From Candidatus Pacearchaeota archaeon (GTDB lineage: Archaea; Nanobdellota; Nanobdellia; Pacearchaeales; GW2011-AR1): a DNA stretch of 64,000 bases. Location of the stretch: the NCBI GenBank assembly GCA_018303845.1, contig JAGVXH010000002.1, forward strand, positions 27,532-91,531, read 5' to 3'. How positions within the stretch are numbered: the stretch's first letter is position 1; every line of letters begins with the position of its first letter. The notes beneath the pieces were generated by a model. The model worked only from the letters and a program-made list of their open reading frames with translations, was not told where the DNA came from and did not search any database. Positions 6,843 to 47,200 of the stretch are shown piece after piece. The position numbers and the translations under genes are program-made.

Positions 6843-7670
6843 TTAACCAAACAATACCCGAGCCCCCATAGTAATCAAAAGCGTCACCGTGAGCAAAATA
6901 AACGAATGCCGAATCCCAGCCCTAATTGTCCCCTCCGAAATCTTCCCAATCACCAGTCCAGCAAAAAATGACTGCACTAACAACATCACAAAAAGTGGCA
7001 TAGAAAATTCCTCAGGATTCATCTGACTTATGCTCACGCTTAAACCTTCTCCAGTCTGCAAGTCCGAAACCAAGGGCAAAATCTTAAACTCCATAACAAG
7101 CATAATAATAATAAATACAAAAAAAATCATATAACCTTGAGTCACCAGATTCGAAACCGAAGCCTGTCTCTCCTTTCTCAAAGTCTCAACCTGAGTAACA
7201 GAACTCGCAACTGATTCCAAAATCATTTCAATATTTCCACCAGCCCGTTCAGCCTCACTAATCAAACCAACCGCCCTAGAAACAACTGGGCTATTCGTAT
7301 CCTTCGAAAAAGTAATCAAAGCATTAGTCAAAGTAATCCCAATCGTCAATTGATTCGCCAACTTAACAATATGAAAACTAAGTGTCCCATAATCTCTGCT
7401 CCTTAAATTAATAATACTCTTACTAATCGGAGTCCCCGACCGAACCATCTCAACAAGATCCCTAGTAAACTCCAAAAATTTCTCTTCCTTCTCACGCTGT
7501 CGAGCCTGCCCAAGCAAAAAACTAAGCATAAATGGAATAACCATAACCAAAAGAGAAATAACAAGTAAAAGATTCAACAAATCCCCAGAAAAAATCCCAA
7601 ACGAAGCGCCAGCCACAATAATCCCCGCTCCAATCCCCAGCCAATGCATCAAATCAAGCTTCATCCTCAC
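6843..7670 (-). CDS. TadC/FlaJ-like type II secretion system F-domain membrane protein (pilus platform protein, second half)
   Basis: Polytopic membrane protein with one T2SSF-like domain. Its start overlaps the stop of the upstream gene (ATGA). Confidence 0.55.
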   Translation of the reverse strand: MRMKLDLMHWLGIGAGIIVAGASFGIFSGDLLNLLLVISLLVMVIPFMLSFLLGQARQREKEEKFLEFTRDLVEMVRSGTPISKSIINLRSRDYGTLSFHIVKLANQLTIGITLTNALITFSKDTNSPVVSRAVGLISEAERAGGNIEMILESVASSVTQVETLRKERQASVSNLVTQGYMIFFVFIIIMLVMEFKILPLVSDLQTGEGLSVSISQMNPEEFSMPLFVMLLVQSFFAGLVIGKISEGTIRAGIRHSFILLTVTLLITMGARVLFG

Positions 7671-33047: not shown

Positions 33048-33941
33048 CTAACCCTTATCTCCCCCAGCCAACCGCGCCCTCAAGACCGGCAACTCCCCAT
33101 TAATCTCAGTCAATCTCTCACCATACTTCTTCATCCTAATATCATAAACTAACCCAGAAAGACTTCTCTTCTTAAACCGCTCAACCTGAACCTTCCTAAT
33201 CAAATCCTTCAAAACAGTACGCTCTGTCTCCATCTTCAAAATCTTATTCTTCAAGATTCTTTTCACAATATTCTTTCTAAGAAAAAATACCATAAAACCA
33301 ACTAAAACAAAACCAACTAAAACAAAAATCCAATGCTCCTGAAAAAAATTTTTAGCCCCACGTTGAACCCCCGCAAAAACAGTTCTATCAGCCCTATCTT
33401 TTTCAACACTAACTCGATATACTTTAATCAAATCTTCAGTCTCAGAAAATCTCTCCTCATAAAAAGCAGCCTTAGCATCTTCCAATATCTGAACATTTCC
33501 AGGAGAAACAATTCCAGGGAGGGGCTCTTCTATAATAATCTTATCCCACAATAAAAACGCTAAATCCCGACGAGCAACAATATCATAATAATAAACCATC
33601 ACGTCATCATACTCAAGATTTTGCCACTTAATCAACCTCAAAGCCTCAGTCGCTTCAGCCTTATCCTCACGAGAAAGACTACCATTCCTCAAAATTTCGG
33701 CATAACTAACCTGCTCAAAAACCCGATTCATCTCTAGTAAAGAATCTTCAACATAAGAAACAGAAAAATTATGCGCCTTCATTTCCGAAATAATATCATC
33801 AACATTTTCAAAAGCCACCATCACAGAATCCAAAGTAATATTTTCTTCTTTTTCCAAAATATCACCAGTCACCAAATTCATAACAATAAATAAATAAATA
33901 AATAGAATAGGCACACCAAAAACTTTAATTTTATTTTTCAT
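33048..33941 (-). CDS. Hypothetical membrane protein
   Basis: There is an N-terminal TM, a soluble domain and a C-terminal TM. The internal start MKNKIKVF avoids a long overlap with the upstream giant gene. Confidence 0.4.
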   Translation of the reverse strand: MKNKIKVFGVPILFIYLFIVMNLVTGDILEKEENITLDSVMVAFENVDDIISEMKAHNFSVSYVEDSLLEMNRVFEQVSYAEILRNGSLSREDKAEATEALRLIKWQNLEYDDVMVYYYDIVARRDLAFLLWDKIIIEEPLPGIVSPGNVQILEDAKAAFYEERFSETEDLIKVYRVSVEKDRADRTVFAGVQRGAKNFFQEHWIFVLVGFVLVGFMVFFLRKNIVKRILKNKILKMETERTVLKDLIRKVQVERFKKRSLSGLVYDIRMKKYGERLTEINGELPVLRARLAGGDKG

Positions 33942-36900
33942 TTTTCCCGCCCTTAATTTTAATCCACTTCCCATGAACATTCCTACCCAAAAAGCCCTTC
34001 CGTCCAACAAAAACTTTCTTAGCAAAACCCTTATCTATAATCTTGCTTTCCCCCTTATCCTCCTTATTCCCCGACGCCACAGACTTAGAAGAAATCTTGT
34101 TCACCCTCTCCTTCATCAGCAACACCGTCATCCTTTCTCCTTCAATCTCGGCCAACCTCTCATTCAAAATCCTAAACTGCAACTCATAACTATCCGTACC
34201 AATCTTCTTATTCTTATAATAATCATTCTGCAATTTCTTAACTTCCGCTTCCGCCTGAATCCTTTCACTATCAAGTTCAGAAATAATCTCCCTAGGCTTC
34301 AATATTCCAATTCTCTGATTCCTCAAAGTCAATCGAACTCCCCTTAAATTCGCCAACCTTTTCTCGTACTGATTCATAATCCGATGATATTCTCCAGAAG
34401 AAATCACACCCGTAAAATATTGTTGCTGAGACGCAGTCATTAATTTCCTAATATTCTCCTCTTCCCTATTAATATCAATAATCCTAGAACTCGCGACGCT
34501 CTTCTGATATTTACGATACCCAAAAATTCCACCCAAGAAAATAAAAAAGACACCCAAGAAAATAAACGGCCAATACAAAAATAAAAACAAAGTAAAATTT
34601 CCCTTTCGATTAAACAACAACAAATTCTGAGCCTCTTTTATTCTCTCATTAGCCAAAGCGTAATCTCCCCTTTCAAAAGCAACCTTAGCTAAATTCAAAA
34701 TATCCTCAACAGACTTATCGCCAAAAATAGCCCAACCAGTAAATATAGAATTCATATTGGCCCGAATACTATCATCAGCATAAGCATCCTTTACAGCGTT
34801 TCCAGTAATTACACCCATCTTCACCGGGTTCCTAAGCGATTCAAAAACTCCATCAATCAAACCTTGAGTTTCAAAAGCCAAATCTCTCAAATCCAAAATA
34901 CTTTCACTTAATTCCAATGCCTCCGCATTTTTTCTTTCTCCCAATTTCAACTTAGCCTTAGCAAAAAAATCCTCAACCTGAATCGTATTAAAACCCGCAA
35001 GCTTCATCTCAAGAATAGCCTTCTCCGCCGCTAGCAAAGAAAGACTCGTATCTTCAAAACTAGCCTCCTGAATAATCAACAAAATATTCTGAGTCTCTCT
35101 ATAACTTCTAGCAGCACCACCCACAACCAATTGACCACTAATCACCGCAACCAAAGTATGTTCCTCCATTACCTCCTTATATGCCGGAACCCGAACATTA
35201 ATATTAAACTTCCCAGATTCTCTATAGCCTATCGGGCCAACAACCAAAGGAGAAATTTTAATATACTTAGACATAAAACCATTCAAACTCAAAGTCAAAT
35301 TTTCCAAAGTAGAATTAATATATTTATTATCCACAGTTATCTCAAAACTATCTTCCCCCCCACGAACAATTTCAATAACTTTAGAATACACAACGGATTC
35401 TCCACTTGCCCCACCCCCGCCGCCTCCACTTCCGCCTCCACCAGTGATAGAAACCACAGTCGAGGCCACAATCGTCCCAGCGCCAATAGTAACCGCCTTA
35501 CTAGCATTAGCGGAATCAGCATTACTAGAATTAGCTACAGCAACAATAGAAACAGAGCTGTCCGTAGCCGACGAAGAAACAGAAACAACCAAACTATTTG
35601 AACCACTTCCGCCAATAGGCAAAGCCCCAAGACTTCTCGTCAAACTTCCACTACTAACACTAAACACCGAAGGCAAAGTCCAACTTAAATAAACATCCGT
35701 CGCATCCGCAGTACCAAGATTAGTAACCGTCGCAACCAAATTCACACTAGAATCCCCAGCCGTCACGCTCCCACTATAAGTACCAATATCAACAACCAAA
35801 TAAGGTCCAACAGCCGTCTGAAGATTGAGTCGCCTCTCAAAAATTTCCACTCCAGCCGCAGAAACAACAGTCACATTATAACTATACAAACCAGAAATCA
35901 AACCAGTAGTATTCACATCAATAGTTATATTTGCAAAACTCCCAGAACCGACAGAATAATTTACACTTAAATTTCCAGAATAATTTACACTCAATCGAGA
36001 ACCAATAGAAGAAGAACTAAGGCTAACATTAAAATTCAAATCTACATCTCCAGTATTATTTAAAATAACATTTCCTAAAGAATTGTTAGAAGCCCTATCA
36101 GCATAAACCAAAGAAACAATAGAACCAATCACAGCACTAACATTATGAGAAGTATCATTCCCAACAACAATCACAGTATTTGCAGAAATATTTCTATTAC
36201 CAGCAAAATCCGTAGCATTAATCTTAAACGTCCAGTTATCTGCCTCAGGAATAAAAGAACCGTTGTAAACAATCACCGAAGACGAACCTACAACCAAATC
36301 AGAATTATTATTCATACTAACAAAACTCCAATTCGTCTCCGTAGAATTCTTGTACATCAAAACAACCGAAGAAATATTATAATCTTCCGTAATACTAGAA
36401 TTCACATTCACAACAACAACAGGGTCCAAGCCATCCGTTGAGTTAGGAAAATAAGTTATATTATTAATAACAGGGGCAGTGTCATCAAAAATAACAACAT
36501 CATCAATACTACTATCATTAACTCTCCCAGCTAAATCATAAACATAAAGCCTAGCACTAAAACCTGGCGGAGAATGATTTCCAGAACCAATTGTATAACT
36601 AGTGGAATTCAAAGTCCCACTCAAATCAATATCAGAACTATTTACCCAAGTCCCACTAGCATTATAACTAACAATAACATAATCCAATCCAACAGCATCA
36701 CTAACATTCACAACACAAACAACATTAACAGAATCATTCGAATCACTGCATGAAAAATTATTCACAGCCGGTACAGTCAAATCGACATAAACAATCACCG
36801 AAGAATTCCCCTGATTACCAGAACTATCATTTGCATAAAATATTACATTATGCTGCCCCTCAACAAAATTAACGGTAGCATTCCAAGAGGTAGAAGAAGT

Positions 36901-39900
36901 ATTCCCCAAATTAGTAAGCGCACCAGAGTTATTCCTATATCCTGCCCAAATAACATTCTCACTCATAGTCGCATTCAAAAGAACACTCCCGTCCAAATCA
37001 TAAGAATTATTAGAAGGACTCCAAACAGTTATCACGGGGGCAGTACTATCCGCAGGAACAGCATCAACAGTAAACGAAACAGAGCTCACTCCGATATTCC
37101 CAGAAGAGTCCACAGCATAAAAAATAACAGTCTTGCTCTCGTCCGCTCCGGTCGCAACAACGCTATTCCAAGCAGATCCAGAACCAGACAAACTAACATT
37201 AGTAGCCCCACCATCCAAAGAATAATTCGCAGCAGTAGCATTCTCATTTAAACTAATACTAAATAAAATATTCGCAGTACCATAAGTCTGATTCAATGGA
37301 CTATTAATACTAACAACCGGAGCAGTCACATCATTAACCGTAAAAGTTATGGAACTAGAATTAGAATTTCCAGCAACATCACTAGAATAGAAATTACAAA
37401 CATATCCACCCTTAGCAACGCTACTCATCGTATAGTTCATCCATCCAGTTCCAGTCAAACTAATTGTATGATTCACAAAACTTCCCGTAACATTCTCCCC
37501 AATCTTAACATTAGTCAAACCAAAAGCATCCGCGACATAAGCACTACAAACCACATTCTGACTTTCATTCGCAGGATTCGGAGTTGCACCAACATTCGTA
37601 TAAACAGGAGAAACGCCATCAACATAAAACACAATCGTCTTACTTCCCTGATTACTCGAAGTATCATTAGCATAAACAACCAAAGTATTAGTAGATTCAT
37701 CACTCAAAGTAAGCATAGCATTCCAATCAACCATAGTCGTATTTGTCAAAGCAACAACAGAAGAGCCATTCAAAGTATACCCAGCCCAAGTCAAATTTTC
37801 ATTAGCAGTCACATTCAAAATAAGACTAGTCGAAGTGTAATAAGTCGCATTAGAAATCGTATCTATCGTTATCACCGGAGGAACAGTATCGGGGGCAGCA
37901 GTATTAACAGAAAAATAAATCACCGAAGAAACTCCAATATTCCCAGAAGAATCATTAGAATAAAACACAATATTATATGCCCCATCTGATAAATTAGTCA
38001 ATGTACTATTCCATGCCACAAGAGAAGTATTTCCCATACTAACATTCGCAGACCCATTCAAAGAATACCATGCCAAACTAGCATTCTCAGAAACACTAAT
38101 CGAAGCAGAAACATTAGCAACATTATACGTAAGATTACTAGGACTATTAACCGTTATTACCGGAACAGTCACATCATTAACATTAAAATTAACAGAACTA
38201 ACATTAGCGTTCCCGGCAAGATCACTAGCATAAAATTTGCAAGTATACCCACCAAAAGTTCCAAGCTGTGCACCAGAAATCAAATAACTAGCTTCACCAC
38301 TAATTCCAGAAAAAGAAATACTATGATTCTCAAAAGTCCCACTACTATTCTCCCCGATTATAACACCAGTTATATTATACGTATCAGTCCAACTAATAGA
38401 ACAATTAACATCCTGCGAAACATTAGCAGGACTAGGGAAAGCCTGAGCCAAACTATATCTCGGAGCAAGACTATCAGCATAAAACACCGAAGTCTTATTG
38501 TTCAAATTATTAGAAGTGTCATTAGCATAAACAACTAATGTATACGTAGTCTCCTGCGTCAAACTAGTCAAAGTAATATTCCAACTCCGAAGACTACTAT
38601 TCCCCAAATCCGAAACAGAACCACCATTCAAAGAATATCCAGCCCAACGCAAATCTTCATCCGCGGTAATATTAATCAAAGTATTCGCAGGATTCTTATA
38701 ACTTAGATTAGCAGGAGAAACAATCGTAATAGAAGGAGGCGTTGTATCAACCGGAGTCGTATCAATCACAAAAGAATTCCCAGTCAAAGTCCCAATATTC
38801 CCATAGCTATCATTCGCCCAAAAAGTCAAAGAATAAGTCCCATCCGCAATACTCGAATTTGTATGAGTATAACTAAGCAAAGTAGTATTCGCCATAGAAA
38901 CATTAGTCGCCCCACCATTCAAAGAATACCAAGCACGAGATAAAGCCTCGCTAACAGAAACACTAATCGTAACAGAATCCTGAGTTATCGTAGAACCATT
39001 AGTCGGAGAAACCAAAGTAATAATCGGAGCTGTATAATCAGTCGTATAGCTCCCGGTCAAACTATTGTTAGTTGCCGCTTCTCCAAGCTGATCAAAAACA
39101 TAAGCATACCAAGTATGAGTAGAAGAATCTAGTTCCGAAACAAGAACACAAGACAAATTAGCGCCACCAGAATCGCTACAATATTCACCCCCAAAACATC
39201 CACTTGAATTCGCCCCAGAAGAATTACAGACAAAAAGAGAAATCAATTGACTAGCATCAGAATCATAAGACACACTAGAAATATTAACGGCAACTCCACC
39301 TTTAATAATCGTAGCATTATCACTAGCACTCATAAAAGTAGGAAGTTGATTTATATTAATCGTTTTATTTTGAACCTCCTGAATGTTACCTGCATCATCA
39401 CTTGAATTATATCTCAAATAATTTATCCCACGGTTTACAGAAGTAAAAATAATTTGCCCACCATTATCAACACTAACCGAAGGCACACAAGTTCCAACAG
39501 TATCAGTACAATATAGAGTAGTAGGATCCGAATCTACATTATCTGCTTCCGTAATCGTAACAGTATAATTTGGAGCTTGAATAGTAGAAACCGAATTATC
39601 CGAAGTTGTTGGAGCAGTATAATCCAAAAAAAACTGCACATCTAAATTTTGACTAGAATTTTGTCCATTAGTATAATTATCTTGACAAGAAACATACCGC
39701 GCATAAAATCCCTGAGAAGCTACATTATTCACAGAACAATTCGCCCGTATTCCAGATACGGTGCAATCATTAGACATAGAAGAATAGGAAACATCACTTG
39801 AACTCCATCGACAGCTCATATTCGCCTCGCCAGAAACAACGATGTTCGTCACCCCATCATTTACTATATCAAAATAACTAGCAGCACTATCTCCAGCAAC

Positions 39901-40827
39901 ACTAACTATCGAAGTCGTTGGAGGAGTAGAATCTGTAATGTAAGTCACATTTGGAACAACCGAAGAATAAGCTGCCCCATCATAAACTCTACAATACTCT
40001 GTATAATTCGTGCTCGTAACAGCCGTAGCAAAAGTGCAAGACAAACTATATGGATAAGTCCCACTAGTAGTCCCACCAGTGCAATCTGTATTCGCAGAAG
40101 TAGGTAAATTAGTGGAATCACAAAATAATTGTAAAGTATTCAAGTCACTATCATTTACTCCATTACGCGTAGTATTCGCGTAGATAGTTATCGTATCCCC
40201 TCCCTTAATCACGGAATGACTTGCACTAATATTCGCAATCACAGGCTCAGCATTTGCAGAATAAGTCACATTAAAATACATCACATCCCAAGTCCCAGTC
40301 TCAGTCGTAGCAGGACCAGTTCCAATTCTTGACATTTCAGATTTCGCAAGCCCCCTAGTTCCACTCGCTCCAAAAAAATTCCCACAACTCCAAGTTTCCA
40401 GACTAGTTACATTTGAACAAGTTATAGAAGCCGGCTCACTAATTGCAGGACAAGTCGTAGTCACAACACTATAACTAGCTCCTCCATTAGCATCGACAGA
40501 AACATCACAATCCTGAGGCGTAGCAGTATTAGTTCTCCACCACTTGTAACAAACAAAAACCTGAGAAACCCCACCACAACTAAGCATGGAGCTATTTACC
40601 GACTGTATTCTTACACCCCCATAAGTACTTTTCAAATAAGTATGAGTCTCAAGAGAAGCATCGTCATTAATCAAAAAAGAACCCGTAGTATTATCACAAA
40701 CTCCCGCAAAACTTCCCTTAATTGCATTATCTTCCGCAGAACAAGTACTCACAACATTCGTGAACACAGCAGCACTCCCAAAAGTTCCAATAAAAACTCC
40801 AATCAACAAAACAAAAATTAACCTCAT
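33931..40827 (-). CDS. Giant (2298 aa) type-I membrane surface protein/adhesin with tandem Ig-like repeats, Gly-rich linker, C-terminal TM and cytoplasmic coiled-coil tail
   Basis: It has a signal peptide, more than 100 N-x-S/T sequons, and about 90-aa repeats (xP.IT..SP.N.SY...WAGYSLNG..) alternating with about 110-aa P.PAN.SQ.V.C modules in an A-A-B pattern repeated three times. There is a GGGGSGGGGGGASG linker, then TM FLFLYWPFIFLGVFFIFLGGIFGY, then a tail of about 180 aa. Confidence 0.8.
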   Translation of the reverse strand: MRLIFVLLIGVFIGTFGSAAVFTNVVSTCSAEDNAIKGSFAGVCDNTTGSFLINDDASLETHTYLKSTYGGVRIQSVNSSMLSCGGVSQVFVCYKWWRTNTATPQDCDVSVDANGGASYSVVTTTCPAISEPASITCSNVTSLETWSCGNFFGASGTRGLAKSEMSRIGTGPATTETGTWDVMYFNVTYSANAEPVIANISASHSVIKGGDTITIYANTTRNGVNDSDLNTLQLFCDSTNLPTSANTDCTGGTTSGTYPYSLSCTFATAVTSTNYTEYCRVYDGAAYSSVVPNVTYITDSTPPTTSIVSVAGDSAASYFDIVNDGVTNIVVSGEANMSCRWSSSDVSYSSMSNDCTVSGIRANCSVNNVASQGFYARYVSCQDNYTNGQNSSQNLDVQFFLDYTAPTTSDNSVSTIQAPNYTVTITEADNVDSDPTTLYCTDTVGTCVPSVSVDNGGQIIFTSVNRGINYLRYNSSDDAGNIQEVQNKTININQLPTFMSASDNATIIKGGVAVNISSVSYDSDASQLISLFVCNSSGANSSGCFGGEYCSDSGGANLSCVLVSELDSSTHTWYAYVFDQLGEAATNNSLTGSYTTDYTAPIITLVSPTNGSTITQDSVTISVSVSEALSRAWYSLNGGATNVSMANTTLLSYTHTNSSIADGTYSLTFWANDSYGNIGTLTGNSFVIDTTPVDTTPPSITIVSPANLSYKNPANTLINITADEDLRWAGYSLNGGSVSDLGNSSLRSWNITLTSLTQETTYTLVVYANDTSNNLNNKTSVFYADSLAPRYSLAQAFPSPANVSQDVNCSISWTDTYNITGVIIGENSSGTFENHSISFSGISGEASYLISGAQLGTFGGYTCKFYASDLAGNANVSSVNFNVNDVTVPVITVNSPSNLTYNVANVSASISVSENASLAWYSLNGSANVSMGNTSLVAWNSTLTNLSDGAYNIVFYSNDSSGNIGVSSVIYFSVNTAAPDTVPPVITIDTISNATYYTSTSLILNVTANENLTWAGYTLNGSSVVALTNTTMVDWNAMLTLSDESTNTLVVYANDTSSNQGSKTIVFYVDGVSPVYTNVGATPNPANESQNVVCSAYVADAFGLTNVKIGENVTGSFVNHTISLTGTGWMNYTMSSVAKGGYVCNFYSSDVAGNSNSSSITFTVNDVTAPVVSINSPLNQTYGTANILFSISLNENATAANYSLDGGATNVSLSGSGSAWNSVVATGADESKTVIFYAVDSSGNIGVSSVSFTVDAVPADSTAPVITVWSPSNNSYDLDGSVLLNATMSENVIWAGYRNNSGALTNLGNTSSTSWNATVNFVEGQHNVIFYANDSSGNQGNSSVIVYVDLTVPAVNNFSCSDSNDSVNVVCVVNVSDAVGLDYVIVSYNASGTWVNSSDIDLSGTLNSTSYTIGSGNHSPPGFSARLYVYDLAGRVNDSSIDDVVIFDDTAPVINNITYFPNSTDGLDPVVVVNVNSSITEDYNISSVVLMYKNSTETNWSFVSMNNNSDLVVGSSSVIVYNGSFIPEADNWTFKINATDFAGNRNISANTVIVVGNDTSHNVSAVIGSIVSLVYADRASNNSLGNVILNNTGDVDLNFNVSLSSSSIGSRLSVNYSGNLSVNYSVGSGSFANITIDVNTTGLISGLYSYNVTVVSAAGVEIFERRLNLQTAVGPYLVVDIGTYSGSVTAGDSSVNLVATVTNLGTADATDVYLSWTLPSVFSVSSGSLTRSLGALPIGGSGSNSLVVSVSSSATDSSVSIVAVANSSNADSANASKAVTIGAGTIVASTVVSITGGGGSGGGGGGASGESVVYSKVIEIVRGGEDSFEITVDNKYINSTLENLTLSLNGFMSKYIKISPLVVGPIGYRESGKFNINVRVPAYKEVMEEHTLVAVISGQLVVGGAARSYRETQNILLIIQEASFEDTSLSLLAAEKAILEMKLAGFNTIQVEDFFAKAKLKLGERKNAEALELSESILDLRDLAFETQGLIDGVFESLRNPVKMGVITGNAVKDAYADDSIRANMNSIFTGWAIFGDKSVEDILNLAKVAFERGDYALANERIKEAQNLLLFNRKGNFTLFLFLYWPFIFLGVFFIFLGGIFGYRKYQKSVASSRIIDINREEENIRKLMTASQQQYFTGVISSGEYHRIMNQYEKRLANLRGVRLTLRNQRIGILKPREIISELDSERIQAEAEVKKLQNDYYKNKKIGTDSYELQFRILNERLAEIEGERMTVLLMKERVNKISSKSVASGNKEDKGESKIIDKGFAKKVFVGRKGFLGRNVHGKWIKIKGGKNEK

Positions 40828-41106
40828 CCGATCTCCTCCATATGCGCCATAATCAACCTCTCAACCCGCTTAGAAAGCATAACATCATTCTTATCGCAAA
40901 AATCCTGAAACTTCCCATAAACATCCACGTCCAAACTAAGAGTCACCTTCTTTCTCATAACAAAGCCAACCACTTTTTATTATTAAGAATTCTTACGCAC
41001 ATATACGTACATAACAACACATCCATATATTACAAAGAAATACATAGAAGAAAATACCATAAGTATACCTACAAAGAAATACAAAACCAAACTAACCTAA
41101 ATCCCA

Positions 41107-41136
41107 AATCCGTGAGAATCCGTGAGAATCCGTGTG
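41107..41136. repeat. Short tandem repeat (aatccgtgag) x 3
   Basis: It reads aatccgtgagaatccgtgagaatccgtgtg, in the promoter-proximal region of the giant surface protein gene. Confidence 0.6.
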
Positions 41137-41194: not shown

Positions 41195-42154
41195 CTAATC
41201 AATCTCACTAAAAACTTCTTGCTCAGGATAAACCATTATCCCCTCTCCAGTAATTTGCATCGCAACAATCTTCTTTTGATGTGCGGCCCCTCGAAGCTTC
41301 AAAACCTCTATCGCATTTTCTCTAACATTCCCATGTTTCAAATTATAAAACACGATAACCCCATCGGCCAAAAACTCCTCAACACCAGAAGTGCTAAAAA
41401 TCTTTGGAATTTGCTCAGTTTCCGTAATCAAAAAACTAGTCGCTCCAATCTTCTCAAAAAACCTAAACAACTGCTCGATATAAATCCGATAACTATCCTC
41501 CTTGCCAGTAAACGCCGAAGCAATCGCAGTTAAAGAGTCCAGTGCAATAAAGTCAGGCTTAAAGCCGCTTGGAATAATCACCGGGTCAACATCAATTAAT
41601 AATTCACCTTTCTCTTTAGCAAGAAGCGCATCGACATTTCGAGTAATCTCAAACGGACTAATCCTTTGAATTTTCAACAGCCCCTTCTTAATAAGCTTAT
41701 CAGCTCCCCATCCAAAACCATTCATATGATCAATCAATCTTTCCTCTCTCTCTTCAAAACTCATATACAAACATTTTTTACCAGCCTCTGCCTGATGAAC
41801 CAAAGTCTGCAAACTAAAAATAGTCTTACCACTTCCCGCTCCTCCTGCAACCAAAACAGCACTACCTTCAGGGATACCCTTATCCAAAAGTTCATCAAAC
41901 CCAGGAACTCCAGTCATAATATATTTCCTGTTATCTTTCTTAACTTTTACAGAAGATTTATTTTTCATACTAGCTAAATTTTTAAAAGAGGCTCTCTGAC
42001 TAGAGATTTGCTCAGCCCTAACCTCTTTTGCAATTTCTGAAACATCTATCTTCCCTTTGACAACTTTCTTCGATACAGCTTTCTTCGATACAGCTTTTTT
42101 CAAAACAACTTTCTTTCTAATCACAGACCCAACCTTCTTTTTCTTTCCTACCAC
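41195..42154 (-). CDS. KaiC/RadA-like RecA-superfamily ATPase with Lys-rich N-terminal extension
   Basis: GVPGFDELLDKGIPEGSAVLVAGGAGSGKT (Walker A) and the KaiC-domain layout are present. The 70-aa N-terminus is K-rich. Confidence 0.7.
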   Translation of the reverse strand: MVGKKKKVGSVIRKKVVLKKAVSKKAVSKKVVKGKIDVSEIAKEVRAEQISSQRASFKNLASMKNKSSVKVKKDNRKYIMTGVPGFDELLDKGIPEGSAVLVAGGAGSGKTIFSLQTLVHQAEAGKKCLYMSFEEREERLIDHMNGFGWGADKLIKKGLLKIQRISPFEITRNVDALLAKEKGELLIDVDPVIIPSGFKPDFIALDSLTAIASAFTGKEDSYRIYIEQLFRFFEKIGATSFLITETEQIPKIFSTSGVEEFLADGVIVFYNLKHGNVRENAIEVLKLRGAAHQKKIVAMQITGEGIMVYPEQEVFSEID

Positions 42155-42200: not shown

Positions 42201-42608
42201 TTACTTTAATCCACAAGCCCGAAAATTTTCCACATATTTATGATCCATTTTAATCAAATGATCTTCCCACCAACTTTTTAAAAAATTTAAAACATCATCA
42301 GCACTACAAGTCCCATTCTGAAAATTTCTATAAAGCAAAAGAACTTTTGCAATATATCCCATATGGGCCGCTACATGGGCCTCGGCTCCTCCATAATTAC
42401 ATTTTGCAAAATAATTTTCTTCCGTAGTAAAATGCACACGAGCAAATTCAATAAGCTCATTTAATATCCTGTTCCCCTTCTCCTTATCTTTATCCCAATC
42501 AATATCATGCGCCCAATTAATCAAACCAAGAAGTTTCTTATGCTGGTTATCAATTTCCTCCACATGAACACTAACACTTTCACTCCATTTAATAAACACC
42601 ACAATCAT
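42201..42608 (-). CDS. Hemerythrin (bacteriohemerythrin-like O2/iron-binding)
   Basis: IDNQHKKL..HFTTEE..H..AH matches hemerythrin metal-ligand spacing. Confidence 0.7.
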   Translation of the reverse strand: MIVVFIKWSESVSVHVEEIDNQHKKLLGLINWAHDIDWDKDKEKGNRILNELIEFARVHFTTEENYFAKCNYGGAEAHVAAHMGYIAKVLLLYRNFQNGTCSADDVLNFLKSWWEDHLIKMDHKYVENFRACGLK

Positions 42609-42620
42609 TCAGAAATATCC

Positions 42621-43802
42621 CTATTTTTTCAAAGGAATATCTTTCTTCCCTCCTTCATCCTTACTAATATTTTTTTCAGAAAAAACCTTTTTTTCATTTG
42701 AGCCAGAAATTTTCTTAGCAGGAACCTCGCATTCATCTCCTAGGCACAAAAAACTACCGCTAGAACCAGTTCTCAAAATTGCTAATTTTAATGACGCTAG
42801 TATTCGATTCAAAGAATCTGCCAAATTCTGAATTTCAAAGATACTACTTTTTTCCAGTTGGATTTCCAATTTGCCTTTTGTTATTTCGTCAACATCAAAC
42901 GCCAATTTCTTGATAGGATTCAAAATAAAAAAAGAAACAATCCACCCAATCAGAGAAACAAAAATGATGATAATGGCTACAATAACAATCGCTTTTCTAA
43001 TCAATTGATTCCGAGCAATACCGAGTGCTTCAGCTTCATCAATTTTAACAACAAGTCCAACATCCATCTCATCAATATATCTCGTCACTGCGAGAACTTC
43101 AACATTACGGTAATCAAACAAACCATAGGCAACCCCTTCTTCTTTGTCCAATGCCTTTTCAATAGGCAAAATGCCAATCAATCTTTCTCTTTCATCAACA
43201 GCCTCTTCCTCAAACCTCCTTTCTGTAAACAAAGAAACGCTCCCATCAACAGTACGATAGGCTAGCAACACCTCACCAGTTTCACCTAAACCCGTCCTAT
43301 CGGATACAAATTCATTAAAACTATCCAAATCAATTCTTGCAACCAAAACATCCTCATGAAAAGGAACAGAGATGGCAATAGATTCTTTTTGAACAGTTTC
43401 AGAAAAATAAGCAGGTTTAACATACACATCTTCTCTAACATTAATAAAATAAGCATCCCCTGATTTATCTTTTCCCACCTGAGATTCATCAGAACTAGCA
43501 ACCACTTTCCCCTCAGGGTCTAAAATAAAAATCTCATAAAATTCTTCCTGCAATTCTATTATCGCCCTTAACTCCTCAGAAGAAAGTTCTTGATGCGTAG
43601 CAGCTATCTTTAATTTTTCTTTTTGCTCTTCCAAAACCTCTTCAATAAAATTTTCAAGTGACTGCGCGACAGATTCTAAATTTAAAACAACCTTTTCTTC
43701 CAATAAAGAATTAGCCTCAATATAATAAGAATACATTCCAACGATACTCCCAACCGTACCTACAAAAATAAATGACATAATCAGTACAACTAAAAATTTC
43801 AT
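42621..43802 (-). CDS. Membrane sensor protein with periplasmic Cache-like domain and HAMP domain (no output domain)
   Basis: A TM helix, a roughly 250-aa extracytoplasmic domain, a second TM, a HAMP-like segment and a short tail are present. No kinase or MA domain follows. Confidence 0.5.
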   Translation of the reverse strand: MKFLVVLIMSFIFVGTVGSIVGMYSYYIEANSLLEEKVVLNLESVAQSLENFIEEVLEEQKEKLKIAATHQELSSEELRAIIELQEEFYEIFILDPEGKVVASSDESQVGKDKSGDAYFINVREDVYVKPAYFSETVQKESIAISVPFHEDVLVARIDLDSFNEFVSDRTGLGETGEVLLAYRTVDGSVSLFTERRFEEEAVDERERLIGILPIEKALDKEEGVAYGLFDYRNVEVLAVTRYIDEMDVGLVVKIDEAEALGIARNQLIRKAIVIVAIIIIFVSLIGWIVSFFILNPIKKLAFDVDEITKGKLEIQLEKSSIFEIQNLADSLNRILASLKLAILRTGSSGSFLCLGDECEVPAKKISGSNEKKVFSEKNISKDEGGKKDIPLKK

Positions 43803-44230
43803 TTCTTCACCTCGTAATATTTTTCATAAACGGGGAAAAGCACCCCTTCTTCAAGGTTAATCCTTTTTATAACGACCTGAGCAATTAGACTAAGTTCATT
43901 TTTAAATTTAAAATTTTCAAATAAATACTTTACACTCTCGTTCTTATGTCTCTCAAAAAAATCCATACTCACTCCAAAAATTGCCAACATCTCTTCAGAA
44001 AATAAACTCCCTAACTTTTTAACACTAGCATCGTCACATTTAGAAAAAAATGGATACAACATCTTATTCTCCAAATCAAGATGGGCAACAAGAATATCTT
44101 TTAACATTCTTAAATCCCTCACCAAATCATCAGCCTCAATCAATTGATCAGAAAAATATTCTTGTATATTATTAAACATTCGCTCAATCTCAATATGTTC
44201 CTGTTTCAGTCGTAAGATTAATCCAATCAT
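43799..44230 (-). CDS. Hemerythrin-like HHE cation-binding domain protein
   Basis: It has repeated H..E / H...E ligand patterns in a four-helix layout. It is translationally coupled to the flanking genes. Confidence 0.45.
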   Translation of the reverse strand: MIGLILRLKQEHIEIERMFNNIQEYFSDQLIEADDLVRDLRMLKDILVAHLDLENKMLYPFFSKCDDASVKKLGSLFSEEMLAIFGVSMDFFERHKNESVKYLFENFKFKNELSLIAQVVIKRINLEEGVLFPVYEKYYEVKK

Positions 44231-47200
44231 TTTTCATTCTCCTTACTCCCAAATATACTAGAGATTGCTTCTTTAAAAACTTCACCATTTTCTTCTTTCA
44301 ATATTCCCTTTTCCGTCAAATCGTTAATATATGAAATCAAATCTTTCTCAAATAACTTATCCTTCTTCTCCAAAAGCTCAAACTCCTGTTTTCCCATGGG
44401 ACCAAGCATTTTAACAAATAAATCCTTAATCTTATCCTTACTATTCTCCTGTATAGAAAACAATAATTTAATTGGCTTAATCTCTTTAGTAGGTTTAAGA
44501 GGCAAGGTAAAATTAAATGTAGTTCCTTTACCAACAACACTTTCCAGCCAAACCTTACCACCTTGAGACTCAACAATTCCTTTAACAATAGCAAGACCAA
44601 GTCCCGTTCCCTGATATTCACGATAGATCGTCTGCTCAACCTGGAAAAAGGGCTCAAAAAGTCTTTGTTGAGATTTCGCATCTATACCAATGCCATGGTC
44701 AGCAACCGAAAACAAAATCATATCTCCCTTTAATTTGGCCTTAACATCAACAGTCGAACCTTCTTTGGAAAATTTAATGGCATTGTTAATCAAATTTCTC
44801 AAAACTTGAGATAATCTATTCGGATCGTGCTCAACAATTGGCAATTTTTCTATACTAGGAATAATAGTAATCTTTTTTTCCGGCATAAACCCTTTCATCT
44901 CTTCAATAACTTGAAGAACAACCTTACCAGGATCATCTCTAACAAACTTAAACTTTAACCGAGCAGCTTCAATCCTAGAAATCTCCAAAAAATCAACAAT
45001 AATACCGTCCAACCTCTTCGTGTTCCTAGAAACAATCTCAATAGCAGTCTTCTGCTCGTCAGTCAACTTCCCATAATATTCGCCAAGTAACATCTGCAAC
45101 TGAGCCTGCATCGGAGTCATGGGAGACCGAAGTTCATGAGAGGTAATAGACAAAAATTCCGTCTTAGCTTTCTCCAATTGTTTATACTCTATTTCCATTC
45201 TGTCCAACGCCTCAGCAGTACTATTAAGAGTCTCACCAAGCGTCTGCAACTCATCGCCAGTATCAATATTAGTCCTAGCCTTAAAATTCTTCTTCCGCAA
45301 CTCTTGCGCCACAACATTTAATTCAGCAATAGGTTTAGAGACTCTATTTGAAACATAAAAACCAAGTCCTACAAAAATAGAAAAAACAATGAAAAGGATA
45401 AACAAAATAACAAACCTAATATTAATCATAATATTATAGTCCTTTGTGGCATTTATTGAAGAAAATATCACTGCAGGTTTTTCATTATAAACATCAACCA
45501 TGGAAAATCCCCCACAAGCAAATACCTCATCATCTAACTTGGAAATTTTCAAAAGAGAAGATTTTTTTCTCAATAACTCAACATTTTCTTCTGAAAAACA
45601 AGGAAAGATTTTTTCAGAATTACTGCTGACTATAACATACTCTTCAAAATCATCCCAATTATTTCTTAATCCCTGAGATTTCCTTGAAGAAGCCCAGTCC
45701 ATTTCATCTAATGAGCCTTTATCTGCAACCATTAAAAAATCATCTCCCTTTCTTTTTTCCATAATATCAAAAAATCCGTCAATCCCTTGAGCTAATTCCA
45801 CATAACCAATCAAATCATCCCCATCATAATACGGGGCCACTACTCTTAACGCATAAGTAGTTTTCCCAAGTTCAATCCCAGAACTCACCAATCCAGTTTC
45901 TTTAGCTTTCAAAAAAGAAGATCTCTTAATCTCATCTCCAAAAATACTTTTATCATGGAGCCGAACAAAACTGGTCCCATTAGGTTCTATAAAATAAAAA
46001 TGCGTTATTCCATATTCATTTTTAAGTTCCGAAAACAACGGATAACTATACTCAAACAATTTCTCCCTATCTCTTTCAAGATAAAGATGCCTCATACTTT
46101 CATCATTTAAAACAACTTCAAGCGTTGCGGATAAACGAGTTATACTGGCCTCCTGCAAATCAAAAAAATCTTCCTCATTTTCAAGTACAGCATCAAAAAA
46201 TTGACGTTCAAGAATTTGATTTTGATAATAAACGACAAGGGCGCCAATTAAAACTATTTCAAACAAAATAATAAATAGAATCACCATAAACTTTTTATCA
46301 ATCTTACTAAAAATTACTTCCTTCGAAGATGAAACATTCGTATTTTTTTTCTTACGAACAATAATCCCAACACCAATCGCAATCGCAATAACAATAGCAA
46401 TCGCAATAAAATAAAATTTGAAACTTATTCCAGGAACAGGTTCAGAAGGCGTCAGTTGAATAGACAACATTATTCCACCAAAAACACCAACATCTTCATA
46501 ATTAGTATTTGGATTAGAATACAAAACAGGAACAGCTAATGTAACCTTAGTTCTGCCACCAACATCAGTAGCATAAGAGACAAACGTCTCCTTATCTTCC
46601 AAAACCTGCCTCGCCATTTCGCTATAAGCAAAAGATCCGCGATACTTATACAAATTAAATATGCTTCCCTCTCTCGTAGAATTAGGCTCATTAAATCCAG
46701 CCAATTGCCCATCCTCTAAATAACCTAAAACATTATCAGGCTTTGGATGAAAAATAGTATTCCCCTCCAAATCAAAAACTAAAAGATAATTCCGAGCATA
46801 AGTGCTACTGATTACAATTTCATCCCTAGCAGGTTCAATGTGCTTAAACAATTCCTGCAAATGCCTATAATCTAAAGACAAAACAACAACACCCTTGAAA
46901 ACTCCGTCCCTATAAACTGGAGAAGAAAATCTTATCACTCCTTGCTTCAAAATATCTCTTCCAATAACTTCTTCATAAATTTTCCCCTCTTTCGCCTCGA
47001 CAGAAGCTCCCTCAAAAACATCATCAAATCCAACATACCAAGTCAAAACTTTCCCAATAAAAACCTCGCCACTATCTAAACCCTTAGTGTCTTCAAAATA
47101 AACTTCAGATTTAAATTCTGTATTCTCTTGGACAGAAACATCCAAAAGATTATCCGAAAATCCATCCTCACTATATTTAATAATTTCTTTCCCATCAGCT

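What the first reader, a model, noticed from the sequence alone, without database searches (positions are those of the whole stretch)
33931..40827. 2298-aa surface glycoprotein with an (A-A-B)x3 supermodule architecture and a cytoplasmic coiled-coil tail
Six about 90-aa Ig-like repeats (P.IT..SP.N.SY…WAGYSLNG) are interleaved in pairs with three about 110-aa modules carrying a conserved Cys pair (…P.PAN.SQ.V.C…). There are more than 100 N-glycosylation sequons and a GGGGSGGGGGGASG hinge. After the TM comes a 180-aa Lys/Glu-rich cytoplasmic tail predicted to form a coiled coil. That is unusual for archaeal S-layer or adhesin proteins and could couple surface binding to intracellular partners. 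A 3x aatccgtgag tandem repeat sits in its upstream region (41107-41136).
Basis: seen in the sequence. Interest (0 to 1): 0.55.

Follow-up and report, generated by a model that had tools for sequence, protein, structure and literature searches.

The report
Modular archaeal adhesin with conserved cytoplasmic tail
This giant sugar-coated surface protein of a tiny symbiotic archaeon (Pacearchaeota) belongs to a large, unnamed family of stalk-like adhesins with swappable tips, and its conserved inner tail, paralogous partner protein and linked KaiC-like ATPase suggest that attachment outside the cell is wired to machinery inside it.

Summary
Window 33931-40827(-) encodes a 2298-aa type I membrane protein with 105 N-X-S/T sequons, a Gly hinge, one TM and a 194-aa charged helical tail. 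The repeats are really (A1-A2-B)x3.

It is 100% identical to a hypothetical protein of a Candidatus Pacearchaeota MAG. It matches no known S-layer family.

About 92 homologues share the whole C-terminal module. The TM+tail profile finds 897 clusters in proteins of about 800 to over 5000 aa.

The family is modular:
- The distal head is exchangeable. It is replaced outright in a relative that is 94-100% identical elsewhere, and other members carry LamG, CBM96 or FG-GAP heads.
- The stalk length varies by whole supermodules (1, 3, 4-5 copies).
- The cytoplasmic two-hairpin tail is among the best conserved parts.

The gene sits in a conserved cluster: KaiC-like ATPase, a small DNA-binding protein overlapping the giant's start, the giant, then a 297-aa paralogue of its anchor module (hhalign E 1e-27). 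In one genome the paralogue is fused to the giant.

Best reading: a membrane-anchored fibrillar adhesin complex whose tails engage a cytoplasmic partner, probably the KaiC-like ATPase. That last step is inferred. The 3x10-bp upstream repeat is real but not conserved.

The parts
33931..40827 (-). Giant surface glycoprotein gene (2298 aa + stop)
   Evidence: ORF list and translation. 100% identical to P0001, 'hypothetical protein J4226_00525 [Candidatus Pacearchaeota archaeon]'.
40768..40827 (-). Residues 1-20: signal-peptide-like hydrophobic N-terminus
   Evidence: Kyte-Doolittle window above 1.8 over residues 1-26. A hydrophobic N-terminus is present in most homologues.
40258..40752 (-). Residues 26-190: Cys-rich distal head (tip), the exchangeable module
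   Evidence: Only 18-26 of 113 hits cover it. It is replaced by unrelated sequence in P0002, which is 94-100% identical from residue 600 on. It also occurs on P0097/P0098/P0104, which lack the tail module. No Pfam hit. AF2 pLDDT below 50 over much of it.
39037..40257 (-). Residues 191-597: conserved neck of four all-beta (Ig-like) domains with conserved Cys
   Evidence: 55-68% identity to most homologues. Invariant Cys columns. AF2 gives beta-sandwich domains at pLDDT 80-90. Weak OmpL47/Big-type hits.
38173..39036 (-). Residues 598-885: supermodule 1 (A1 598-694, A2 695-788, B 789-885)
   Evidence: Self-BLAST, repeat alignments, Pfam Big_13/Big_5 on the A copies. AF2: A1, A2 and B are all beta-sandwiches.
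37330..38172 (-). Residues 886-1166: supermodule 2 (A1, A2, B)
   Evidence: Self-BLAST E 1e-22 to 1e-27 against supermodule 1. Pfam Big_3_4 at 922-1020, above its cut-off.
36463..37329 (-). Residues 1167-1455: supermodule 3 (A1, A2, B with altered Cys pattern)
   Evidence: This B type resembles the single B of the 1.7-kaa homologues (sequences).
35443..36462 (-). Residues 1456-1795: conserved membrane-proximal base, including a NEW3/CARDB-like beta-sandwich (about 1692-1757)
   Evidence: Pfam NPCBM_assoc, weak here but above its cut-off in short family members. Conserved in about 95-105 of 113 hits.
35401..35442 (-). Residues 1796-1809: GGGGSGGGGGGASG hinge
   Evidence: Direct reading.
34597..35400 (-). 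Residues 1810-2077: juxtamembrane beta-sandwich plus extracellular helical bundle (conserved AAFERGDY motif)
   Evidence: AF2 model md47ea567abce: strands at model 9-89 and helices at 94-169 and 208-246, pLDDT about 90. Alignment A3. Homologous to the partner's ectodomain.
34516..34596 (-). Residues 2078-2104: transmembrane helix
   Evidence: Hydropathy. Conserved (F)LYLYW motif. In the AF2 model the helix continues into the cytoplasm.
34099..34515 (-). Residues 2105-2243: conserved cytoplasmic module, two helical hairpins each with a Y(F/Y)xGKISxxEY-type turn
   Evidence: 87-sequence alignment. Internal repeat E 4e-4. AF2 helices at model 256-308, 314-345, 348-374 and 381-423. The profile finds 897 clusters. 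Sub-threshold CdvA-like hits.
33934..34098 (-). Residues 2244-2298: poorly conserved Lys/Gly-rich basic C-terminal extension
   Evidence: 25% Lys, net charge +11. Low occupancy and conservation. pLDDT below 50.
33048..33941 (-). Partner gene (297 aa from MKNKIKV): signal/TM, helical ectodomain, TM, one-hairpin tail. It is a paralogue of the giant's anchor module and its start overlaps the giant's stop by 11 nt.
   Evidence: BLASTP. hhalign A6 vs A3: prob 99.8, E 9.7e-28, 244 columns. Directly downstream in 13/13 loci and in L014 and L016. Fused to the giant in L015.
40824..40958 (-). Small ribbon-helix-helix-like gene (44 aa, MRKKVTLSLDVDVY...), with its stop overlapping the giant's ATG (ATGA)
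   Evidence: Sequence. Pfam DUF6364 E 0.002 here; orthologues hit RHH_1 above its cut-off, plus RHH_9 and ParG. Present with the same overlap in the other loci.
41031..41082 (-). Two copies of GTATTTCTTTGTA (41031-41043, 41070-41082) upstream of a TATA-like TTAATAATAAAAA: candidate operator/promoter element
   Evidence: 2 matches, 0.29 expected. The same motif lies only upstream of the RHH gene in L003 and L008 among 13 loci.
41107..41136 (-).
   Evidence: TRF 2.8 copies at 100%, positions. Absent from the homologous intergenic regions of L001-L003, L008 and L009.
41195..42154 (-). KaiC-like single-domain ATPase with a Lys-rich N-terminal extension
   Evidence: Pfam PF06745 E 2.7e-51. NCBIfam KaiC-domain families, weaker ArlH. 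Within a few kb of the giant in every locus with enough flank, upstream or downstream.
42201..47520 (-). Sensor genes: hemerythrin (42201-42608), Cache-HAMP protein (42621-43802), partial hemerythrin (43799-44230), Cache-HAMP-HisKA-HATPase kinase (44227-47520)
   Evidence: Pfam/NCBIfam. Equivalent Cache/PAS/HAMP/hemerythrin genes lie upstream in L001, L002, L006, L008, L009 and the P0069 locus.

Best explanation
The gene encodes a membrane-anchored, heavily N-glycosylated fibrillar adhesin. It belongs to a large uncharacterised family found in Pacearchaeota/Woesearchaeota-type DPANN archaea.

Reading from the outside in, the protein has:
- an exchangeable ligand-binding head;
- a conserved four-domain Ig-like neck;
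- a stalk whose length is set by the number of 285-aa A1-A2-B supermodules (three here);
- a conserved base, a Gly hinge, a beta-sandwich and a helical bundle next to the membrane;
- one TM helix;
- a conserved cytoplasmic module of two helical hairpins.

It is made from one transcription unit with a small DNA-binding (RHH) protein and a 297-aa paralogue of its own anchor module. The giant and the paralogue most likely pair through their helical ectodomains, TM helices and tails.

Shown here: the anatomy, family membership, modular head and stalk variation, the paralogy, and the conserved gene linkage.

Inferred:
- The head binds a host or substrate surface glycan.
- The two proteins form a hetero-oligomer.
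- The conserved tails dock a cytoplasmic partner. The operon-linked KaiC-like ATPase, which sits below Cache/PAS/hemerythrin sensors, is the best candidate. This would couple adhesion to signalling or to regulated assembly.
- The RHH protein autoregulates the operon through the GTATTTCTTTGTA repeats.
For: Anatomy.

Family:
- 113 hits, of which 92 carry the tail module.
- The C-terminal 410 aa align in one HSP at 25-70% identity.
- The TM+tail profile finds 897 clusters (427 at E<=1e-10) in proteins of about 800 to over 5000 aa.

Adhesin-type modularity:
- The head is replaced in P0002 while residues 600-2298 stay 94-100% identical.
- Heads of other members are Laminin_G_3 (E 3e-18), CBM96 (E 9e-31) and an FG-GAP propeller (E 2e-35).
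- Supermodule copy number is 1, 3 or 4-5.
- The ectodomain model matches only chains of Ig/Fn3 domains, such as the GhpA grappling-hook base and contactin.

Partner:
- hhalign E 9.7e-28.
- Adjacent in 13/13 loci, plus L014 and L016.
- Fused to the giant in P0086.

KaiC link:
- Adjacent in every locus with enough flank.
- Gene order varies: upstream in most, immediately after the partner in L005 and L007, directly abutting the 828-aa mini-member in L011.

Tail conservation.

Small DNA-binding gene overlapping the start in all loci, RHH in most and wHTH-like in L015/L016.

Conserved promoter motif.
Against: - No experiment or expression data exist for any member. Every source calls them hypothetical.
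- The head of this particular protein has no recognisable fold and a low-confidence model, so ligand binding is inferred from relatives.
- No interaction between the tail and the KaiC-like ATPase was computed or shown.
- In some loci the ATPase is fused to hemerythrin or a wHTH-like segment. That fits a purely regulatory role upstream of transcription just as well.
- The gene fusion in P0086 could be an assembly or indel artefact of two overlapping genes, although the same sequence is carried by several contigs.
- Literature searching was limited to the held library.
Confidence: 0.5

Rival explanations
1. It is the S-layer system of the organism. The giant is the lattice-forming canopy protein and the 297-aa protein is its membrane stalk, as with SlaA/SlaB of Sulfolobales.
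For: - Chain of Ig-like domains and twofold sequon enrichment.
- A large gene and a small gene co-transcribed, the small one helical and membrane-anchored.
- Archaeal S-layer proteins are often TM-anchored (bioRxiv 10.1101/2024.05.28.596244).
Against: - A lattice protein should keep its size and contacts. Family members instead range from 828 to over 5000 aa, gain or lose whole supermodules and swap heads between near-identical strains.
- Both proteins carry their own TM and tail.
- There is no sequence or fold match to any S-layer family.
- A structure survey assigns DPANN phyla, including Nanoarchaeota, an orthologous MSTP-like beta-sandwich S-layer protein.
Confidence: 0.12
2. It is an adhesin, but the tail is only an anchor/oligomerisation element. 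The KaiC-like ATPase, sensors and RHH protein merely control transcription of the operon and make no physical contact with the tail.
For: - KaiC-like ATPases in neighbouring loci are fused to hemerythrin (a sensor) or a wHTH-like segment (DNA binding).
- A dedicated small DNA-binding gene and a conserved promoter motif are present.
- Sensor kinases lie upstream.
Against: - A 135-aa tail among the best conserved parts of the protein, duplicated internally and kept in the partner, is more than an anchor needs.
- The ATPase stays glued to the pair even when gene order changes (L005, L007, L011).
Confidence: 0.25
3. The tail is a CdvA-like helical-hairpin module that polymerises under the membrane or recruits membrane-remodelling factors at the contact site with a host cell.
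For: - Pfam PF18822 (CdvA-like coiled-coil) is the commonest hit of the C-terminal module: 7 of 38 members and 7 of 9 tails.
- All hits are in the same register; the best is E 1.3e-6 at 28.9 bits.
- Foldseek lists the S. islandicus CdvA filament 9s9g_I at prob 0.99, E 0.32.
- CdvA coiled-coils drive filament formation (PMC12818579).
Against: - All scores are below the Pfam cut-off of 30 bits. The window protein itself scores 15 bits.
- Family profiles do not find CdvA among PDB sequences.
- There is no PRC barrel.
- Coiled-coil composition inflates such hits.
- No ESCRT-III or Vps4 gene was seen in the loci examined.
Confidence: 0.08
4. The tail is a ribosome/translocon-docking four-helix bundle like the cytoplasmic domain of OST1/ribophorin I. 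It would tether translating ribosomes near the secretion and glycosylation site of these very large glycoproteins.
For: - The first-hairpin profile hits the Prometheoarchaeum OST1 cytoplasmic domain 8whn with two matching stretches, E 0.1.
- The same entry appears in Foldseek at prob 0.98, 129 columns.
- That domain is a four-helix bundle that pulls down ribosomes (PMC11417166).
- The overall layout is similar: extracellular beta-sandwich, TM, cytoplasmic helices.
Against: - Neither hit is significant.
- There is no Ribophorin_I domain.
- The hypothesis does not explain the KaiC linkage.
Confidence: 0.05

Closest known systems
Bacterial fibrillar adhesins (Ig-like repeat stalk plus adhesive tip plus anchor), e.g. 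the GhpA grappling-hook protein of Aureispira
   Same: - Beads-on-a-string Ig-like stalk built from tandem repeats whose number varies between relatives.
- Distal lectin, CBM or propeller heads in family members.
- Foldseek match of residues 26-890 to the GhpA base 9fly_A (E 7e-17).
- Head swapping.
   Different: - Archaeal and N-glycosylated.
- Anchored by a C-proximal TM followed by a conserved 135-aa cytoplasmic module.
- Obligately paired with a paralogous small membrane protein and a KaiC-like ATPase.
- No sequence homology beyond generic Ig-like domains.
SlaA/SlaB S-layer pair of Sulfolobales
   Same: - A large glycosylated Ig-rich protein encoded next to a small helical membrane-anchored protein (SlaA/SlaB described in bioRxiv 10.1101/2023.10.27.564410).
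   Different: - Here both proteins have a TM and a tail.
- The small one is a paralogue of the large one's anchor.
- Size and head vary widely.
- No homology detected.
Giant surface proteins of other DPANN, e.g. the SPEARE proteins of Nanohaloarchaeota (own knowledge; the paper PMC6642349 was listed but not read)
   Same: - Very large secreted or anchored multidomain proteins proposed to mediate host contact in DPANN symbionts.
   Different: - No homology was tested.
- SPEARE proteins are described as carrying protease and nuclease-type domains.
- No conserved tail/partner/KaiC module is known to me for them.
ArlX/ArlH of the crenarchaeal archaellum motor (own knowledge; review PMC8978795 was listed but not read)
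   Same: - A monotopic membrane protein with a cytoplasmic coiled-coil that scaffolds a single-domain KaiC-like ATPase.
- The window's ATPase hits ArlH models weakly (E 8e-12, far below their cut-off).
   Different: - No ArlI or ArlJ next to this cluster.
- The membrane proteins here carry huge ectodomains.
- The ATPase is closer to generic archaeal KaiC-domain families than to ArlH.
Integrins (functional analogy only)
   Same: - Two type I membrane subunits with short conserved cytoplasmic tails.
- A leg made of Ig-like domains.
- One family member (P0013) has an FG-GAP propeller head.
   Different: - No homology is claimed.
- The partner has no head.
- The tails are unrelated.
CdvA coiled-coil hairpin (PF18822) and the OST1/ribophorin I cytoplasmic bundle (8whn)
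   Same: - Helical hairpins with a similar turn.
- Recurrent sub-threshold sequence and fold hits.
   Different: - All scores are below curated or significance thresholds.
- The accompanying domains (PRC barrel, ribophorin luminal domain) are absent.

Membership tests
Archaeal S-layer lattice protein (SlaA-type, csg-type or MSTP-like) | Sequence or fold homology to a described S-layer family | tested here: not met
   Pfam, NCBIfam and PDB sequence and fold searches return only generic Ig-like domains.
Archaeal S-layer lattice protein (SlaA-type, csg-type or MSTP-like) | Stable architecture among close relatives, as a lattice requires | tested here: not met
   Head replaced in a 94-100% identical relative. 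Supermodule copies number 1, 3 or 4-5. Tail-bearing relatives range from 828 to over 5000 aa.
Archaeal S-layer lattice protein (SlaA-type, csg-type or MSTP-like) | Forms a 2-D crystalline layer and is among the most abundant proteins | not testable with these tools
   No expression or imaging data are available for this uncultured organism.
Fibrillar adhesin (stalk of tandem Ig-like domains + adhesive domain + surface anchor) | Stalk of tandemly repeated Ig-like domains | tested here: met
   Six A and three B repeats, Big_3_4/Big_13/Big_5 hits, all-beta AF2 domains.
Fibrillar adhesin (stalk of tandem Ig-like domains + adhesive domain + surface anchor) | Recognisable adhesive/ligand-binding domain at the distal end | tested here: inconclusive
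   The window protein's head (26-190) has no family hit and a low-confidence model. Homologues carry Laminin_G_3, CBM96 and FG-GAP heads at the same position.
Fibrillar adhesin (stalk of tandem Ig-like domains + adhesive domain + surface anchor) | Cell-surface anchor | tested here: met
   Single TM at 2078-2104 with positive-inside flank, conserved in the family.
Fibrillar adhesin (stalk of tandem Ig-like domains + adhesive domain + surface anchor) | Demonstrated adhesion to a cell or substrate | not testable with these tools
   Needs experiment.
CdvA-like coiled-coil domain (Pfam PF18822) | Score at or above the Pfam gathering threshold (30 bits) | tested here: not met
   Window tail 15.1 bits, E 0.024. 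Best homologue 28.9 bits, E 1.3e-6. 7 of 9 tails hit in the same register.
CdvA-like coiled-coil domain (Pfam PF18822) | CdvA architecture: N-terminal PRC barrel and C-terminal ESCRT-III-binding peptide | tested here: not met
   No PRC barrel hit anywhere in the protein. The C-terminus is a non-conserved Lys-rich stretch. The E3B peptide was not specifically searched.
OST1/ribophorin I | Ribophorin_I extracellular domain plus cytoplasmic four-helix bundle | tested here: not met
   No Ribophorin_I hit. The cytoplasmic domain resembles 8whn only at E 0.1 (sequence profile) and E 0.29 (Foldseek).
SHOCT domain (a resemblance recalled from memory for the GxISxxEY turn) | Pfam SHOCT match | tested here: not met
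   No SHOCT hit was listed for the tail even at E <= 10 or among tails at E <= 0.5.
KaiC-like ATPase (neighbouring gene 41195-42154) | KaiC/RecA-type P-loop domain | tested here: met
   PF06745 E 2.7e-51, 174.6 bits against a cut-off of 26.6. Walker A GGAGSGKT and the FEERE motif can be read in the sequence.
Ribbon-helix-helix DNA-binding protein (gene 40824-40958) | RHH family match | tested here: inconclusive
   Window protein: only DUF6364 at E 0.002, below its cut-off. The syntenic small protein of L001 hits RHH_1 at 21.3 bits (cut-off 20.5), and the 62% identical L002 orthologue hits RHH_9 and ParG weakly. L014's small ORF has RHH_1 (weak) on record.

The most novel reading that the evidence does not exclude
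The giant protein and its small paralogue form an integrin-like two-subunit adhesion receptor of DPANN archaea. Their conserved cytoplasmic hairpin modules would bind and regulate, or be regulated by, a dedicated KaiC-like ATPase. Contact with a host cell would then be signalled inward, or adhesion switched on from inside in response to Cache/PAS/hemerythrin sensors. This would be a previously undescribed transmembrane adhesion-signalling device in archaea.
Probability: 0.22. Interest if true: 0.85.

Novelty: new variant of a known kind. Interest (0 to 1): 0.6.

Why it matters
How Pacearchaeota and Woesearchaeota, which are abundant, uncultured archaea with reduced genomes, attach to and sense partners is unknown.

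This locus defines a concrete, widespread and testable candidate for that role (about 900 sequence clusters). It has:
- a modular adhesin whose head can be compared across strains to predict host or substrate range;
- a stalk whose length is tuned in 285-aa steps;
- a conserved cytoplasmic module with a paralogous partner and a KaiC-like ATPase, which could be the first example of adhesion coupled to intracellular signalling in archaea.

The conserved TM+tail profile is also a practical marker for finding this class of surface proteins in metagenomes.

Tried and rejected
- BLASTP of the whole protein against itself returned only the identity hit. It was replaced by fragment-versus-protein BLAST.
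- The search for related loci with the 38-sequence alignment A3 failed for lack of a conserved stretch.
- Foldseek of the C-terminal model against the PDB found nothing at E < 0.03. Its beta-sandwich matched only generic PapD/MSP-like folds.
- Family profiles against PDB sequences (A4, A7) gave no significant hit.
- Makarova et al. 2017 on KaiC-like hubs (PMC5717392) is not held, so I could not check whether this neighbourhood is mentioned there.
- A profile search with the partner returned only 12 proteins, because of the word index.
- The 3x10-bp tandem repeat was considered as an operator and rejected as a conserved element, because it is absent from homologous loci.
- The SHOCT resemblance recalled from memory was not confirmed by Pfam.
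- The tip domain was modelled but came out at low confidence, so no fold assignment was attempted for it.

Full report
**1. What is there**

The minus strand of window 33931-40827 carries an uninterrupted ATG-initiated ORF of 2298 codons. The product has these features:

- A hydrophobic N-terminus of signal-peptide type.
- A 2050-aa ectodomain that is acidic, poor in Lys and Arg, and rich in Ser, Thr, Asn and Val.
- One hydrophobic helix at 2078-2104, followed by RKYQK.
- A 194-aa tail in which 35% of residues are charged.
- 105 N-X-S/T sequons, none of them in the tail. Composition-matched shuffles of the ectodomain give 47.8 +/- 5.7.

The surrounding genes are archaeal: ABCE1/RLI, arginyl-tRNA synthetase, DUF7343 and a KaiC-like ATPase. 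The protein is 100% identical to a 'hypothetical protein' of a Candidatus Pacearchaeota MAG.

**2. The repeats**

Cutting the protein into 100-aa fragments and comparing them with the whole gives many off-diagonal matches. E-values reach 1e-27, with a main period of about 285 aa and a sub-period of about 95 aa. Alignment of the copies shows:

- Six A units in two alternating subtypes.
  - A1, with 'AWYSLNG', starts at 598, 886 and 1167.
  - A2, with 'WAGY', starts at 695, 981 and 1261.
- Three B units at 789-885, 1074-1166 and 1352-1455.

Like subtypes are 40-52% identical. Unlike subtypes are 30-46% identical. The duplicated unit is therefore the whole A1-A2-B supermodule.

The Cys pair of B is conserved in B1 and B2 only. 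B3 keeps the first Cys, has lost the second and has a different extra Cys.

The A units hit bacterial Ig-like families: Big_3_4 above its cut-off, Big_13 just under and Big_5 well under its cut-off.

An AlphaFold2 model of residues 26-890 has mean pLDDT 75.7, and 80-90 from residue 195 on. It shows seven consecutive all-beta domains: four in the 'neck', then A1, A2 and B. Foldseek matches it only to chains of Ig/Fn3 domains, namely thick-filament proteins, contactin, the base of the Aureispira grappling-hook protein and mastigonemes. B is therefore another beta-sandwich, not a different kind of fold.

**3. The family and what varies in it**

The protein search returned 113 proteins. Most are 1600-2900 aa, come from metagenomes, and are named Pacearchaeota, Woesearchaeota, Nanoarchaeia or Aenigmarchaeota where named at all. 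All are 'hypothetical'. A scan of species-representative genomes found loci only in MAGs labelled Pacearchaeota, Woesearchaeota or Nanoarchaeia, plus one labelled simply 'archaeon' and one 'bacterium'.

A coverage map and a targeted BLAST give three results:

- Residues 1831-2240 align in a single segment with 92 homologues at 25-70% identity.
- Residues 190-890 are 50-68% identical in most of them.
- Residues 1-190 are covered by only about 20.

The stalk varies by whole supermodules. The 1.7-kaa members have a single copy; P0006, for example, is 68% identical and 1733 aa, which is the query minus 565 aa. The 2.3-kaa members have three copies, and P0008 and P0005 have four to five.

The head is exchangeable.

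- The closest relative, P0002, is 94-100% identical from residue 600 to the end.
- It is only 57-78% identical over residues 200-600.
- Over residues 26-190 it is unrelated (18-33%, signal peptide excepted).
- The window's own head also occurs on three other giant proteins that lack this family's tail.
- In other members the head position holds a Laminin_G_3 lectin-type domain with DUF2341, a CBM96 carbohydrate-binding module, or a six-bladed FG-GAP repeat region. All of these score well above their Pfam cut-offs.

This is the pattern expected of a receptor-binding tip under diversifying pressure on a conserved shaft. A lattice-forming wall protein would not be expected to behave this way.

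**4. The anchor module and the tail**

An AlphaFold2 model of residues 1831-2298 was built on 38 sequences (mean pLDDT 79.8). It shows, in order:

- A beta-sandwich.
- An extracellular helical bundle carrying the nearly invariant AAFERGDY motif.
- A TM helix that runs on into the cytoplasm.
- Three further helices.

The cytoplasmic part is therefore two helical hairpins, followed by a disordered Lys/Gly-rich end.

In an 87-sequence alignment, the roughly 135 residues after the TM are among the best conserved parts of the protein. The consensus reads:

...YRxYQKSSI..KI.DLNKEE.NI..L....Q..YF.GKIS..EYH.......RLA.I...R..LRNKRIK.LKP......L..E...VE.EIKKLQ..YY...KISE.EY...F..LNERLAEIEGER

The two hairpins are an internal duplication (E 4e-4). 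The partner profile also matches the second hairpin.

A profile of TM plus tail, searched against 1.84 billion representatives, finds 897 clusters at E <= 1e-3, of which 427 are at E <= 1e-10. The match is always near the C-terminus. Host proteins run from 800 to over 5000 aa, fragments aside. Short members keep a NEW3/CARDB-like sandwich together with the anchor.

No curated family covers the module. Two weak leads recur:

- **CdvA-like coiled-coil (PF18822).** It hits 7 of 9 tails in one register. The best score is 28.9 bits against a cut-off of 30, and the window protein scores 15 bits. Foldseek lists the CdvA filament at E 0.32.
- **OST1/ribophorin I cytoplasmic four-helix bundle of Prometheoarchaeum (8whn).** It appears both in a profile search (E 0.1) and in Foldseek (E 0.29).

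Neither lead is significant. I treat both as resemblances of helical hairpins, not as membership.

**5. The gene neighbourhood**

(a) A small DNA-binding gene overlaps the giant's start.
- In the window it is a 44-aa ORF (40824-40958) that ends in the giant's start codon (ATGA).
- Its orthologues hit RHH families.
- A small ORF with the same overlap precedes the giant in every locus examined.
- In most loci it is RHH-like. In the distant loci L015 and L016 it is a 66-aa winged-helix-like protein.

(b) A paralogue of the anchor module lies immediately downstream.
- It is a 297-aa protein, and its start overlaps the giant's stop by 11 nt.
- It has a signal/TM segment, a helical ectodomain, a TM and a one-hairpin tail.
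- Profile-profile comparison with the giant's C-terminal module gives probability 99.8% and E 9.7e-28 over 244 columns. The match spans the ectodomain bundle, the TM and the hairpin.
- It follows the giant in 13 of 13 loci, and also in L014, L016 and the P0069 locus.
- In L015 (P0086) it is fused in frame to the end of the giant. This is a Rosetta-stone indication that the two act together.

(c) A single-domain KaiC-like ATPase (41195-42154; PF06745, E 3e-51) lies within a few kb in every locus with enough flanking sequence.
- It is usually just upstream.
- In L005 and L007 it lies directly after the partner.
- In L011 it directly abuts an 828-aa miniature member of the family.
- Upstream of it lie Cache, PAS, HAMP and hemerythrin sensor genes.
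- In several loci hemerythrin is fused to the ATPase. In one locus a wHTH-like segment is fused instead.

It is missing from the corresponding intergenic regions of related loci. What is shared is a 13-bp element, GTATTTCT(T/A)TGTA. It occurs twice in the window (41031-41043 and 41070-82; 0.29 matches expected by chance). Among 13 related loci it occurs only upstream of the RHH gene, in L003 and L008, just before a TATA-like box.

**6. Interpretation**

Shown:
- The protein is a type I membrane glycoprotein built as head, neck, variable stalk, base, hinge, juxtamembrane domains, TM and conserved tail.
- It belongs to a very large uncharacterised family.
- It is co-encoded with a paralogous anchor protein, a small DNA-binding protein and a KaiC-like ATPase.

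Inferred:
- It is a fibrillar adhesin whose head binds a surface ligand, probably a glycan, judging from the lectin and CBM heads of relatives.
- It pairs with the partner through the homologous helical, TM and hairpin parts.
- The conserved cytoplasmic modules bind a cytoplasmic protein. The ATPase is the obvious candidate because it is the only cytoplasmic enzyme that stays linked through rearrangements.
- The small RHH protein probably autoregulates the operon.

Rivals:
- The S-layer reading is disfavoured by the size and head variability. It is also disfavoured by a published survey that assigns DPANN lineages an orthologous MSTP-like S-layer protein (bioRxiv 10.1101/2024.05.28.596244).
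- A purely regulatory role for the ATPase remains a serious rival.
- The CdvA-like and OST1-like readings of the tail are minor rivals.

**7. Novelty**

Giant Ig-repeat surface proteins, and the idea that DPANN use them for host contact, are known. Examples are, plus my own knowledge of SPEARE proteins.

My searches found no description of the following:
- the conserved TM-plus-two-hairpin cytoplasmic module;
- its paralogous partner;
- the constant link to a KaiC-like ATPase and a translationally coupled DNA-binding protein.

No curated family covers them either. The literature library is incomplete, and the key KaiC paper could not be read. I therefore rate this a new variant of a known kind, with moderate to high interest.

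Noticed in passing
window 1-64000: Very strong strand composition bias. GC skew of the + strand is -0.4 to -0.55 wherever genes lie on the minus strand and much weaker where they lie on the plus strand, so coding strands have G far in excess of C.
   Followed up: no
window 7667-9154 (-) and 10175-11719 (-): A T2SSF-type membrane protein and a T2SSE-type ATPase, i.e. a type IV pilus or archaellum-like assembly locus about 22 kb from the giant gene.
   Followed up: no
window 49741-50859 (-) and 50909-53092 (-): A cyclopropane-fatty-acyl-phospholipid-synthase-like (CMAS) methyltransferase next to a heavy-metal P-type ATPase. A CMAS-type gene is unexpected in an archaeon with ether lipids.
   Followed up: no
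window 42201-42608 (-), 43799-44230 (-); L001 4298-5695; L002 4325-5725; L003 104-1405; L006 5235-6473: Hemerythrin is a separate gene here, and a second ORF matches only the C-terminal half of the domain. In L001-L003 hemerythrin is fused to the N-terminus of the KaiC-like ATPase. In L006 the ATPase carries a wHTH-like N-terminal segment instead.
   Followed up: partly
window 41930-42154 (-): The KaiC-like ATPase starts with a roughly 75-aa Lys-rich, low-complexity extension (MVGKKKKVGSVIRKKVVLKKAVSKKAVSKK...).
   Followed up: no
L011 7686-11879: A miniature 828-aa family member (NEW3-like domain plus anchor module) sits directly after a 233-aa KaiC-like gene and before a partner gene. This may be the minimal form of the system.
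   Followed up: partly
L015 6001-13755 (P0086): The giant and the partner are fused in one 2584-aa ORF. A complete anchor module is followed by a second, partner-type module. The same protein is carried by several contigs.
   Followed up: partly
L015 5804-6004 and L016 5804-6004: In the most distant loci the small ORF overlapping the giant's start is a 66-aa winged-helix-like protein rather than an RHH protein. This looks like a non-orthologous replacement of the coupled DNA-binding gene.
   Followed up: no
window 41031-41043 and 41070-41082 (-); L003 1414-1426; L008 5239-5251, 5268-5280: The 13-bp motif GTATTTCT(T/A)TGTA is found only in the promoter region of the RHH-giant operon in three related loci.
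   Followed up: partly
P0002 residues 20-165 (closest homologue of the window protein): Its replacement head (NFEGNLSNW...SLEC...IYIKFSYF...) reads like a jelly-roll/CBM-type module but has no Pfam hit.
   Followed up: partly
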